Shown here piece after piece: positions 9,856-12,611 of a stretch of DNA of 64,000 bases (positions are counted from its first letter, which is position 1; every line of letters begins with the position of its first letter). The stretch covers positions 1 through 64,000 of the forward strand of contig JALJEE010002055.1 in assembly GCA_023231475.1 (NCBI GenBank). The letters are read 5' to 3'. Origin of the DNA: Seison nebaliae. Taxonomy: Eukaryota. Position numbers and translations under genes: made by a program. Below the pieces are notes generated by a model, which saw only the letters and a list, made by a program, of their open reading frames with translations, made no database searches and was not told the origin of the DNA.

Positions 9856-12611
9856 ATGTCAAAATATTTGGATAATGCCGCGAGAAAATCGGACGGCTAT
9901 GAAGAATTGGCGAATGATGAACATATTTTCGAACGAGACACAGATGGATGGGGATTGACAGCATTCGTTCCTAATTCGACTTTTCTCCAATCCAATTCCA
10001 TTCCCCGAGTAAGTCGCTACAAAGGAAAGACGAAGAGTGGGAAAGTGAATTCGGAAGTACAAGATGTCGGTTTGAAAGTGAAACGACAAACTTTGGGAGA
10101 GACAGACACGTACCGACTACAACATTCATCGAAATATCAGGCAGCATCAATTCGAAGAATAACAGGAGGTATGACATCTGATCCCGTCATTTACAAAGAC
10201 GAAGTCCAACAATGTGAAGATGAATTAGAAACGAAACGATTAGACCATCATTATCGATTACATAAACATGAGTCGAGATTATTGAGATTTTATCCTTATG
10301 GATTTCGGAGTGAAGCGAAGAAAATTTCGGTTCTCGCACTTCCCATCGTTATTAGTTGCATCGATTCTTTGTCTATTCAGATTCATCTGTTTCCAGGTAT
10401 TGGCACATATTCTCCAGAAAATGATTCCATTGTGTAGTTCGATATTTGCGGGACATTTAGGCAAACATGAATTAGATGCCGTCGCTTTAGCTGTATCAGT
10501 TACTTATCATTCATTAATTTTTTAATTTCAAATTTTCAGTTTACGAACGTAGCAATCTTGTCGATAGGAGAAGGTCTAGCGACCGCTTGTGACACGTTAT
10601 TTTCTCAAACTTACGGTGCCGGTAATAAGAAAGGTGTGGGAATCATATTACAACGAGCACTCATAATTCTGATGTTGGCCTGCTTCCCATGTTCTGCCTT
10701 ATTGTTGAACACGGAACATTTGTTAGTTCTATTGAAACAAGACGCGGAAGTGGCCAGGTTAAAAATAAATTTTCCATGAAATTTCCATTTCCATCATCGT
10801 CACATTTAGATTGGCGGGCATTTTCTGTCAAATCTGCATACCTGGTGTTGTGGTTATTGTTTGAAATGGTTTCTTCTTTCTTTAATTGTTCGGGCAGTTT
10901 AGTTTCATCTATACAATTCTTGTGAAATATGTCCAAAATCAAGTTTGAATTTTTTCAATCTTTTTATTTTATTTTCCTCCAATAGAATGTCGTCCGACCA
11001 TTACTTTATAACGCTATGATTGCTAATGTATTAAATATTGGTTATCATTTCTTCTTTGTCACTTATCTCCAATGGAGTGTTGGGTTAGATGAATTTATGA
11101 TTTGAATTTAATGATTAATCTCATTTAAATTTTCATTAATTAAAGTGGATGTGCCATAGCGGTCGATTGTGCTTTTTTCACTTTATTCTTCCTCTCAATC
11201 GTCTATATCAAATGGAGTAAAATGTATCAAGCCACTTGGAGTGGTATATCAATCGGTGCCCTCCAAAATTGGTCGTCATTCCTCTGGTTAGCTATACCGG
11301 GAATTTTCATGATATGCTGCGAATGGTGGTACATGGAATTATGTGATTTTATCACAGGTTTCTCTCTCGTCGTCGACGATTTTTTCGAATTATTTTTTCA
11401 ATTTCAATCCTAGGAACGATCGGTGTAGTCGAATTGGGCACTCAATCGACATTAGTCGAATTATTCGATTTATGTTATCAAGTTCCTTTTGGTTTCGCTA
11501 TCGCTTCATCGATTCGAATTGGAAATTATCTGGGAAGGAACAAACCATTAGGCGCCGCTACCGTTTCACGAATGGCATACACTTTAGCCGTTTTTTGGAG
11601 TTTGGGATTGTTTACTGTCATCATATCGTGTCGTCATTATCTCCCCAGAATTTTTACGAGTGATCGGTTCAATTTGAAATTTTCCGTTTTTTCCAATAAA
11701 TTTCCGTTTTCAGAGATATCGTCGCATTAAGTTCCAAAGTTCTAACATTCGCTTCGATTCAAGTCGTCGTCGATACTTTCTCAGTTATCTTTGAATTATT
11801 TTCATTCATTCTAACAAATTTAATTTTCAGGCAGTTTCTTCTGGAACTTTACGTGGCACCGGTAAACAGGCCGTTGGTGCCATCGTTAATTTTATCGGTT
11901 ATTACGTAATTGGTTTACCGGTCGGTTTATCTTTATTATTAAAGACGTCTTTAGTATTGAATGGTTATTAATGATAATAATGATGATGATGATTTGAGAA
12001 ATCGAATAATTTTAAATTTAACAGGTCTTTGGATTGGAATTCTTTGTGCGACTTCAACTCAAATTATCGTTTTCATTCCGTTTATTTTGAAAATAAATTG
12101 GGAAAATGAAGCGGAGAAAGCGCAAGAACGTGCGGGAATTTTTGAAAGAGAAGAAATGGAAACGAGTCAGGAAATAGAGACATTCGGAGAACGATTTCAA
12201 TGGGTACAGAAAGCTCAATCGAATGAGGATACGTTCAATTCGAATGATGAGAAGAGAAATGAATCAATGAAAAATTATTATTCAATCACCACAACCGATT
12301 CAGTCGAATTGAGTATCGAAGAACATTCGGAGAAACAACCACTACTTAATGATCGTGTGATAAGAGTAAATGAGAAATGGAGAATTATTCGACAGAAACT
12401 TTTTGTTCTTTTCATCTTCATCATGATAACGGTGGGCGGAGTGATTCTTCGAATGAAATTAACTTATGATATCGATTGGTACGAATTATGTCTTGTGTCA
12501 GAGAATGTGACGGATTATAGGAAATTCGGTAAAAGATCAATGATGCTTCCTTTACATTATGCTAATGATTCCATCCACTTCAAGTTTTGCAACGAATCAA
12601 TGTTGGTATGA
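9856..12611 (+). CDS. MATE family (SLC47-like) multidrug/toxin extrusion transporter, 11 exons
   Basis: Motifs FAGHLGKHELDAVALA, GLATACDTLFSQTYGA, LAIPGIFMICCEWW, ASSIRIGNYLG, SGTLRGTGKQ and GLWIG, plus an extra C-terminal TM. Introns: 10348-10396, 10499-10539, 10758-10809, 10853-10897, 10943-10985, 11084-11145, 11358-11413, 11667-11713, 11784-11830, 11964-12024. All are GTT..AG and keep the frame. Confidence 0.95.

What the first reader, a model, noticed from the sequence alone, without database searches (positions are those of the whole stretch)
10348..12024. Donors carry no information beyond GTT, and introns have a hard length floor of about 41 nt
Seen: positions +4..+6 vary freely (ATT, ACT, AAA, TGA, TCT, CAA, GGA, CGT, TTT), +5G is uncommon, and the exonic -1 base is any of A, C, G or T. 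The shortest introns are exactly 41 nt in four different genes (10499-10539, 42354-42394, 49362-49402, 54117-54157), and most are 41-68 nt. In MATE intron 1 a good TTCAG at 10376-10380 would give a 33-nt intron in the wrong frame and must be skipped. Inference: introns are defined by a GTT..AG pair, a length ruler and AT/pyrimidine richness rather than by extended U1/U6 pairing.
Basis: partly seen in the sequence, partly recalled or inferred. Interest (0 to 1): 0.7.

Follow-up and report, generated by a model that had tools for sequence, protein, structure and literature searches.

The report
Animal whose introns all start GTT
In this stretch of DNA from Seison nebaliae, a rotifer relative that lives on crustaceans, all 36 introns that could be placed begin GTT where its relatives use GTA at the same positions, which likely means its splicing machinery now reads a different third letter.

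Summary
The window is Seison nebaliae. The GTT donor is real: 36 of 36 placed introns in six genes start GTT, and a +3-blind aligner with mosquito SERT recovers all 10 SERT introns. Bdelloid-like SERT loci use GTA at 64 of 68 introns in seven shared positions, so old introns were recoded.

'No information beyond GTT' is overstated: -1 is a purine in 29 of 36, and +4..+8 keep about 0.5 extra consensus matches (p=0.002). A hard 41-nt floor is not shown: P(none <41) is 0.16-0.37, a deposited isoform has a 39-nt intron, and bdelloids have the same lengths. GTT, AG, length and U-rich/G-poor composition find 30 of 36 introns without using the reading frame.

Likely mechanism: ordinary intron definition with a changed snRNA base facing +3, as in Entamoeba U1. 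No Seison RNA, U1 or U6 was available. My searches found no paper on this donor; the scan noted GTT-start introns in other genomes.

The parts
9856..12611 (+). MATE (SLC47-type) transporter gene, 11 coding exons
   Evidence: Deposited protein P0011 maps uniquely; residues 149-594 align without a gap to a solved 'Multidrug and toxin extrusion protein 1' chain across all 10 junctions
10348..10396 (+). MATE intron 1, 49 nt, GTT..CAG; internal TTCAG at 33 nt is skipped
10499..10539 (+). MATE intron 2, 41 nt, GTT..CAG
10758..10809 (+). MATE intron 3, 52 nt, GTT..TAG
10853..10897 (+). MATE intron 4, 45 nt; three in-frame GTTs 6 nt apart (10847, 10853, 10859) would give 51, 45, 39 nt; isoform P0036 uses the 39-nt form
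10943..10985 (+). MATE intron 5, 43 nt, GTT..TAG
11084..11145 (+). MATE intron 6, 62 nt, GTT..AAG
11358..11413 (+). MATE intron 7, 56 nt, GTT..TAG
11667..11713 (+). MATE intron 8, 47 nt, GTT..CAG
11784..11830 (+). MATE intron 9, 47 nt, GTT..CAG
11964..12024 (+). MATE intron 10, 61 nt, GTT..CAG
17465..18154 (-). Four GTT introns of calsyntenin: 18154-18110, 17958-17911, 17739-17685, 17515-17465 (45, 48, 55, 51 nt)
   Evidence: Deposited P0001; non-Seison profile and aligner
33074..33321 (-). Two GTT introns (33321-33270, 33155-33074; 52, 82 nt) of a gene I recall as FAM78-like
   Evidence: Frame and my reading; the name is recalled, Pfam and Atlas gave no hit
39648..41484 (-). Six GTT introns of the calpain core: 41484-41431, 41013-40958, 40637-40554, 40229-40174, 39871-39809, 39710-39648
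   Evidence: Deposited P0012; non-Seison profile ranks 5 of 6 first
42354..43021 (-). Four GTT introns of a cyclin A-like gene: 43021-42968, 42891-42835, 42582-42535, 42394-42354 (54, 57, 48, 41 nt)
   Evidence: Pfam Cyclin_N and Cyclin_C; cyclin A2 match ends at the first donor; frame
49362..49402 (+). 41-nt GTT..TAG intron of a ubiquitin-domain gene (frame only, not among the 36)
53391..55566 (-). Ten GTT introns of a serotonin-transporter-like SLC6 gene (48, 58, 53, 64, 53, 41, 65, 49, 58, 50 nt), including 54157-54117
   Evidence: Deposited P0038; 10 of 10 ranked first by a non-Seison profile and recovered by a +3-blind aligner with mosquito SERT

Best explanation
These are short GT-AG introns at ancestral positions whose third base is T in all 36 placed cases, likely because the snRNA base that faces +3 (predicted U1 ACUUAC to ACUAAC, or U6 G44) has changed in the Seison lineage. 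Shown: GTT at every placed donor; GTA at the same positions in bdelloid-like loci; only weak signal at -1 and +4..+8, in the normal register; U-rich, G-poor, AG-poor intron bodies. Inferred: the major spliceosome defines each intron across its 41-85 nt; U-rich-binding proteins mark the intron body; U1 makes a very short helix over about -1..+3; with so little pairing left, +3 became a third obligatory base and all old introns were converted.
For: 36 of 36 GTT, P about 5e-12 at intron T frequency. GTT donor best in 19 of 20 junctions under non-Seison profiles. Bdelloid-like loci: 97 GTA, 5 GTT, 3 GTG, 1 GTC of 106; 64 GTA, 3 GTG, 1 GTT of 68 at seven shared positions. Residual match in the normal register, none in shifted or bulged registers. 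Composition-based finder 30 of 36. Internal AG 10 vs 33 expected. Precedent: Entamoeba GUUUGU with U1 ACAAAC (10.1101/2022.06.08.495308, passages). PRPF8, SF3B1, SF3B3, SNRNP27, PRP31, U2A' are listed Complete for Seison (PMC12256650 supplement rows).
Against: No Seison U1 or U6 sequence was seen (no genome held; no Rfam hit in the window). Most lineages with atypical donors kept a standard U1. In Entamoeba the changed U1 goes with more pairing, here with less. One window, six genes, no RNA. The deposited calpain model has a GTA and a GTC intron in a tail without homology, and two queries place a 51-nt GTA gap at 17890-17840 in calsyntenin.
Confidence: 0.45

Rival explanations
1. The snRNAs are unchanged. 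U1 pairing has decayed or U1 is reduced, and +3 U is selected later, as a G-U wobble with U6 G44 next to the U+2 pair, or by a changed protein pocket (Prp8, U1-C, LUC7). This is closest to the first reader's view.
For: +3 faces U6 G44 and normally interacts weakly (PMC11732430 passage); the Entamoeba preprint notes GUU allows more U6 pairing; most atypical-donor lineages keep standard U1; invariance like that of +1/+2 suggests an active-site constraint (inference); splicing without U1 is known in C. merolae.
Against: The same U6 G44 exists in all animals, yet bdelloids prefer GTA, so something must have changed; residual match to the U1-type consensus in normal register remains.
Confidence: 0.35
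2. GTT is only the majority donor; long, alternative or UTR introns elsewhere use GTA/GTG, and this window over-represents short constitutive introns.
For: Six genes in one window; GTA (36805-36711) and GTC (36693-36631) introns in the deposited calpain tail; a GTA gap candidate in calsyntenin.
Against: 0 of 36 placed introns are non-GTT; the GTA/GTC cases lie in regions without homology or are in-frame, G-rich insertions annotated as exon.
Confidence: 0.12
3. Read in a shifted or bulged U1 register, in which the extra T is skipped and the usual consensus follows one base later.
For: Other windows of this scan report such GTT classes in protists (unchecked notes).
Against: Shifted and bulged registers score at or below shuffles: 0.72 vs 0.84 and 1.14 vs 1.13; +6 G is 2 of 36.
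Confidence: 0.03
4. Artefact of gene prediction or of T-rich introns, or a new family of inserted introns with GTT ends.
For: 30 of the 36 junctions come from predicted proteins; introns are 48.5% T.
Against: +3-blind alignment with non-Seison proteins finds the same donors; bdelloid introns are 45.5% T yet start GTA; seven SERT positions are shared with bdelloids.
Confidence: 0.05

Closest known systems
Entamoeba GUUUGU(U) donors with co-evolved U1 (Roy and Bowser, 10.1101/2022.06.08.495308; abstract and passages read)
   Same: U at +3 in nearly all introns; GT-AG ends; AU-rich short introns.
   Different: Entamoeba is intron-poor with a strict 6-7 base donor (97-98.5% GUUUGN); Seison is an animal with up to 10 introns per gene here, and +4..+7 do not follow the Entamoeba motif (1.28 vs 1.54 in shuffles). 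The U1 change is shown there, untested here.
Major-class short introns of bdelloid rotifers (loci; alpha-tubulin introns in PMC3464624, passages)
   Same: Same intron positions in SERT, same median length (53), similar minimum (44 here; 42 in the tubulin paper), similar AT-rich bodies, weak +5 G (48 of 106).
   Different: Donor is GTA in 97 of 106, with +4 A in 74; Seison is GTT in 36 of 36 with +4 near background.
U5-loop-1 class of 5' splice sites (AG//GU; PMC11732430, passages)
   Same: Weak +4..+6 with more signal on the exon side (-1 purine 29 of 36).
   Different: That class keeps purine at +3; here -1 G is only 16 of 36, and 16 of 36 donors have neither -1 G nor +5 G.
UA-rich intron definition in plants and U-rich 5' splice-site enhancement by TIA-1/Nam8 (recalled; Nam8/TIA-1 named)
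   Same: Base composition of the intron body does much of the discrimination.
   Different: Those systems keep GTA/GTG donors; the proteins were not tested here.

Membership tests
Major (U2-type) spliceosomal intron | GT..AG ends with Y at -3 | tested here: met
   36 of 36 GT..AG; -3 is T17 C16 A3
Major (U2-type) spliceosomal intron | Purine at +3 (GURAGU consensus) | tested here: not met
   +3 is T in 36 of 36; this is the variant feature
Major (U2-type) spliceosomal intron | Branch-site motif near the 3' end | tested here: inconclusive
   YTNA at -12..-19: 41 vs 32 in the best window of shuffles, p=0.0055; per intron 25 of 36 vs 19.8, p=0.05; best of nine patterns tried
Major (U2-type) spliceosomal intron | Removal from RNA through a lariat | not testable with these tools
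   No RNA holder listed; the runs laid showed no intron-sized GT..AG joint
Major (U2-type) spliceosomal intron | Positions inherited from ancestral introns | tested here: met
   Seven SERT positions shared with bdelloid-like loci
Entamoeba-type co-evolved donor | +3 U in nearly all introns | tested here: met
   36 of 36, one window only
Entamoeba-type co-evolved donor | Extended UGU(U) at +4..+7 | tested here: not met
   1.28 vs 1.54 matches in shuffles
Entamoeba-type co-evolved donor | U1 5' end complementary to the atypical donor | not testable with these tools
   No genome held; no snRNA in the window
Minor (U12-type) intron | RTATCCTT donor and strong branch site (motif recalled) | tested here: not met
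   None of the 24 donor hexamers fits; ZMAT5 listed Missing for Seison
Shifted or bulged U1 register donors | Consensus resumes one base later | tested here: not met
Introner-type inserted introns | New positions and sequence similarity among introns | tested here: inconclusive
   Positions are old in SERT; similarity among introns was only inspected by eye

The most novel reading that the evidence does not exclude
Seison is an intron-rich animal that has rewritten the core 5' splice signal genome-wide to an obligatory GUU with almost nothing else, through a changed U1 5' end or U6 ACAGA box or through near loss of U1 pairing, converting all its old introns from GTA to GTT.
Probability: 0.4. 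Interest if true: 0.8.

Novelty: new variant of a known kind. Interest (0 to 1): 0.62.

Why it matters
Purine at +3 is among the most constant parts of the animal splice donor. A lineage that switched its inherited introns from GTA to GTT poses a clear puzzle: how can a whole intron set change base together without passing through mis-splicing? It makes testable which of U1, U6 or a protein fixes +3, using public genome data for Seison, its second strain and acanthocephalans. It also shows how little donor sequence suffices when introns are short and compositionally marked. In practice, gene finders trained on other animals would mis-place Seison donors. The 41-nt floor on its own is ordinary.

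Tried and rejected
RNA support: no RNA holder listed among 7 runs; contigs of X1, X2, X4, X6 laid on one 8.9-kb stretch showed no intron-sized GT..AG joint and X6 laid nothing; neither is evidence either way. Whole genome: none held, so no genome-wide counts and no U1/U6 search. Rfam at gathering score: 0 hits in the window. Exon depletion of GTT..AG pairs: z=-4.8 against synonymous shuffles, but GTA gives -6.4 and GTG -2.3, and the within-exon distance control shows nothing specific at 41-65 nt; rejected. Shifted, bulged and Entamoeba-type registers: rejected. Hidden in-frame introns of 15-39 nt: of 35 candidates in SERT and 29 in calpain only one gains over 1 bit (24-nt GTT, +3.1 bits, near the poorly conserved N-terminal part); calsyntenin is uninformative because its insertions give gains up to 22.9 bits for any donor. 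Naming the FAM78-like gene by tool failed. Literature: searches and passage searches in PMC8351084, PMC10125929, PMC12256650, PMC10639083, PMC7310846, PMC12690905, PMC13161344 found no description of Seison or acanthocephalan donors. Papers outside this library, and bioRxiv supplements, were not seen.

Full report
Source. The long ORF 13892-17464 (-) matches P0001 at 100%, named 'hypothetical protein SNEBB_003707 [Seison nebaliae]'. Deposited Seison proteins were also found for the MATE gene (P0011 and isoform P0036), a calpain (P0012) and a serotonin-transporter-like SLC6 (P0038). No whole genome is held and no RNA holder was listed, so everything rests on one window and protein homology.

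Placing the introns. Exact mapping, with GT/GC/AT donors and AG/AC acceptors allowed, gave one solution per protein. MATE 10, SLC6 10, calsyntenin 4 and the first 6 calpain introns all start GTT: 30 of 30. I left out six further introns of the deposited calpain model, because that tail shows no homology and the core frame closes without them at 610 aa; four start GTT, one GTA, one GTC. I added four cyclin A-like introns (Pfam and PDB support; continuity across junctions partly from recalled cyclin A sequence) and two from a gene I recall as FAM78-like (frame only). Total 36 of 36 GTT.

Is this circular? Three checks use no Seison protein as the yardstick. (1) Spliced MATE aligns without a gap over residues 149-594 to a solved MATE1 chain, across all 10 junctions. 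(2) For 20 junctions I scored every frame-keeping GT/GC..AG pair within 45 nt against profiles of non-Seison homologues: the placed intron ranked first in 18; one exception keeps the GTT donor with another acceptor, the other lies outside the homologous region, where GC options win by 0.2 bits or less. (3) A spliced aligner blind to +3 recovered 10 of 10 SERT introns with mosquito SERT, plus one 180-nt GTC gap in the poorly aligned N-terminus. With three calpain queries it recovered 4, 4 and 5 of the 5 introns in the homologous part, with three extra non-GTT gaps and one alternative GTT donor; with two calsyntenin queries 3 of 4, plus a 51-nt GTA gap at 17890-17840 in both and a 225-nt GTC gap in one. 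The GTA gap is in frame, G-rich and annotated as exon, but remains an open candidate.

What the donor carries. GTT is 30% of non-donor GTN in these genes; 36 of 36 has P about 5e-12 even at the intron T frequency of 48.5% (introns treated as independent). +4 (A15 C7 G2 T12) and +6 are at background. -1 is A13 C5 G16 T2 (0.28 bits, p=0.0012); the G excess sits in phases 1 and 2, where codons constrain it, and phase 0 is A9 C4 G3 T0. +5 is A13 C10 G6 T7 (0.24 bits, p=0.002). Positions +4..+8 match the usual consensus 2.11 times against 1.61 in shuffles (p=0.002), while shifted, bulged and Entamoeba-type registers show nothing. So about half a bit and half a base pair remain, in the normal register. 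The acceptor is YAG (T17 C16 A3) with T-rich -4 and -6. Intron bodies are 48.5% T and 6.8% G, against 27% and 21.5% in exons; internal AG occurs 10 times against 33 expected. YTNA is weakly enriched at -12..-19.

Length. Range 41-84, median 53, three at 41; frame-only introns add 41, 44, 44, 46, 46, 52, 117 and 201 nt. A smooth log-normal gives P(none <41) of 0.16-0.37; three at 41 against 0.5-0.6 expected is suggestive only. Seven internal GTTs that would give 21-39 nt introns and two YAGs at 24 and 33 nt are skipped, but so are GTTs giving 42 and 44 nt. Isoform P0036 uses a 39-nt intron; it is a prediction, and gene finders have their own lower limit (recalled). A hard floor is neither shown nor excluded.

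Sufficiency. Of 372 exonic GTTs in 26,279 coding bases, 194 have a [TCA]AG 41-65 nt downstream, and this spacing is not specifically avoided. A frame-blind, leave-one-gene-out finder gets 22 of 36 with 49 false calls from GTT, AG and length; 30 with 5 false when composition is added; 24 with 10 false if any GT is allowed; 27 with 7 false without length (best of eight priors). GTT and composition matter most.

Relatives. A scan with Adineta steineri SERT (P0069, named) returned 80 loci; I aligned 27 and kept 14 with 67-87% identity, dropping 5 duplicates and 8 at 63% or less, and dropped one apparent intron caused by a gap in the query. Seven of the 14 were long enough for a tree: they group with A. 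steineri (100/100), sister to Seison (99/97); the bootstrap had not fully settled. Their 106 introns start GTA 97, GTT 5, GTG 3, GTC 1; +4 A 74, +5 G 48; lengths 44-349, median 53. At seven positions shared with Seison they are GTA 64, GTG 3, GTT 1 of 68. These introns are related to each other, so no p-value is claimed. Eight more distant loci also show mostly GTA. A bdelloid tubulin study gives 42 nt as its minimum (PMC3464624, passages). So length and weak +5 are inherited; the fixed +3 T is derived on the Seison side. Whether acanthocephalans share it is unknown (nothing in passages).

Mechanism. Shown: old positions, fixed GTT, weak normal-register flanks, compositional marking. From the literature: the donor GUAAGU pairs with U1 ACUUAC, and Entamoeba changed both to GUUUGU and ACAAAC, while several other lineages kept a standard U1 (10.1101/2022.06.08.495308, abstract and passages); +3 later faces U6 G44 and interacts only weakly (PMC11732430, passages). 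A BUSCO table lists PRPF8, SF3B1, SF3B3, SF3A3, SNRNP27, PRP31, PRP6, U2A' and Sm proteins as Complete for Seison, and U5-40K, SPF45 and ZMAT5 as Missing (PMC12256650 supplement rows; I read Seison as the 23rd species column; I saw no U1-protein, LUC7 or METTL16 row). Inferred: a major spliceosome works by intron definition, and +3 became obligatory when its snRNA partner changed to pair with U (0.45), or when U1 pairing decayed and a U6 wobble or protein pocket took over (0.35). GTT as only a majority (0.12), artefact or inserted family (0.05) and shifted register (0.03) are weaker.

Novelty. +3 U donors are published for Entamoeba. Searches found no description for Seison or another animal; one search returned only the Entamoeba preprint. 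Papers outside the library, including any on the annotation of this genome, were not seen. Unchecked notes of this scan report GTT-start mini-introns in Bonamia and in a probable animal parasite, and shifted GTT classes in protists; nothing was noted for this genome. Verdict: a new variant of a known kind; the donor is real and surprising, the floor ordinary, the mechanism open and directly testable. Interest 0.62.

Noticed in passing
window 9174-9257 (+): 3' half of a 5S rRNA, 32.8 bits, below the gathering score of 38, with most of the 5' half missing: a 5S pseudogene or 5S-derived element about 600 nt upstream of the MATE gene.
   Followed up: partly
window 10847-10897 (+): Three in-frame GTT donors 6 nt apart would give 51-, 45- and 39-nt introns; two forms are deposited. 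A natural test of any length floor.
   Followed up: partly
window 40958-40963 (-): Calpain intron 2 ends TAGTAG; the first AG would leave an in-frame stop, so the second must be used. The only exception to 'first YAG past 41 nt' among the 36.
   Followed up: partly
window 36424-39423 (-): The deposited calpain model runs on through a 2440-nt intron and five more, two non-GTT, into a tail without homology; likely a mis-join, or partly the 5' region of the next gene.
   Followed up: partly
window 45440-45690 (+): The junction between ORFs 45130-45537 and 45545-47419 (DUF4550-like gene) has 18 frame-keeping options, GTT and non-GTT, none clearly intron-like; it may be two genes.
   Followed up: partly
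window 5149-8556, 13892-17464, 50028-52745, 57950-61567: Several ORFs of 900-1200 codons without introns (M13 peptidase, calsyntenin body, two unnamed) lie beside genes with ten introns.
   Followed up: no
whole window: Dinucleotide bias: GC 0.56, TA 0.57, AG/CT 0.76, CG 1.34, GA/TC 1.45 of expectation; CpG excess is unusual for an animal (recalled).
   Followed up: no
window 39384-39535, 46005-46197, 46367-46482: Short low-depth contigs in X1, X2, X4 differ from the window at about 15-20% of letters in coding parts, as a second lineage or paralogue would.
   Followed up: no
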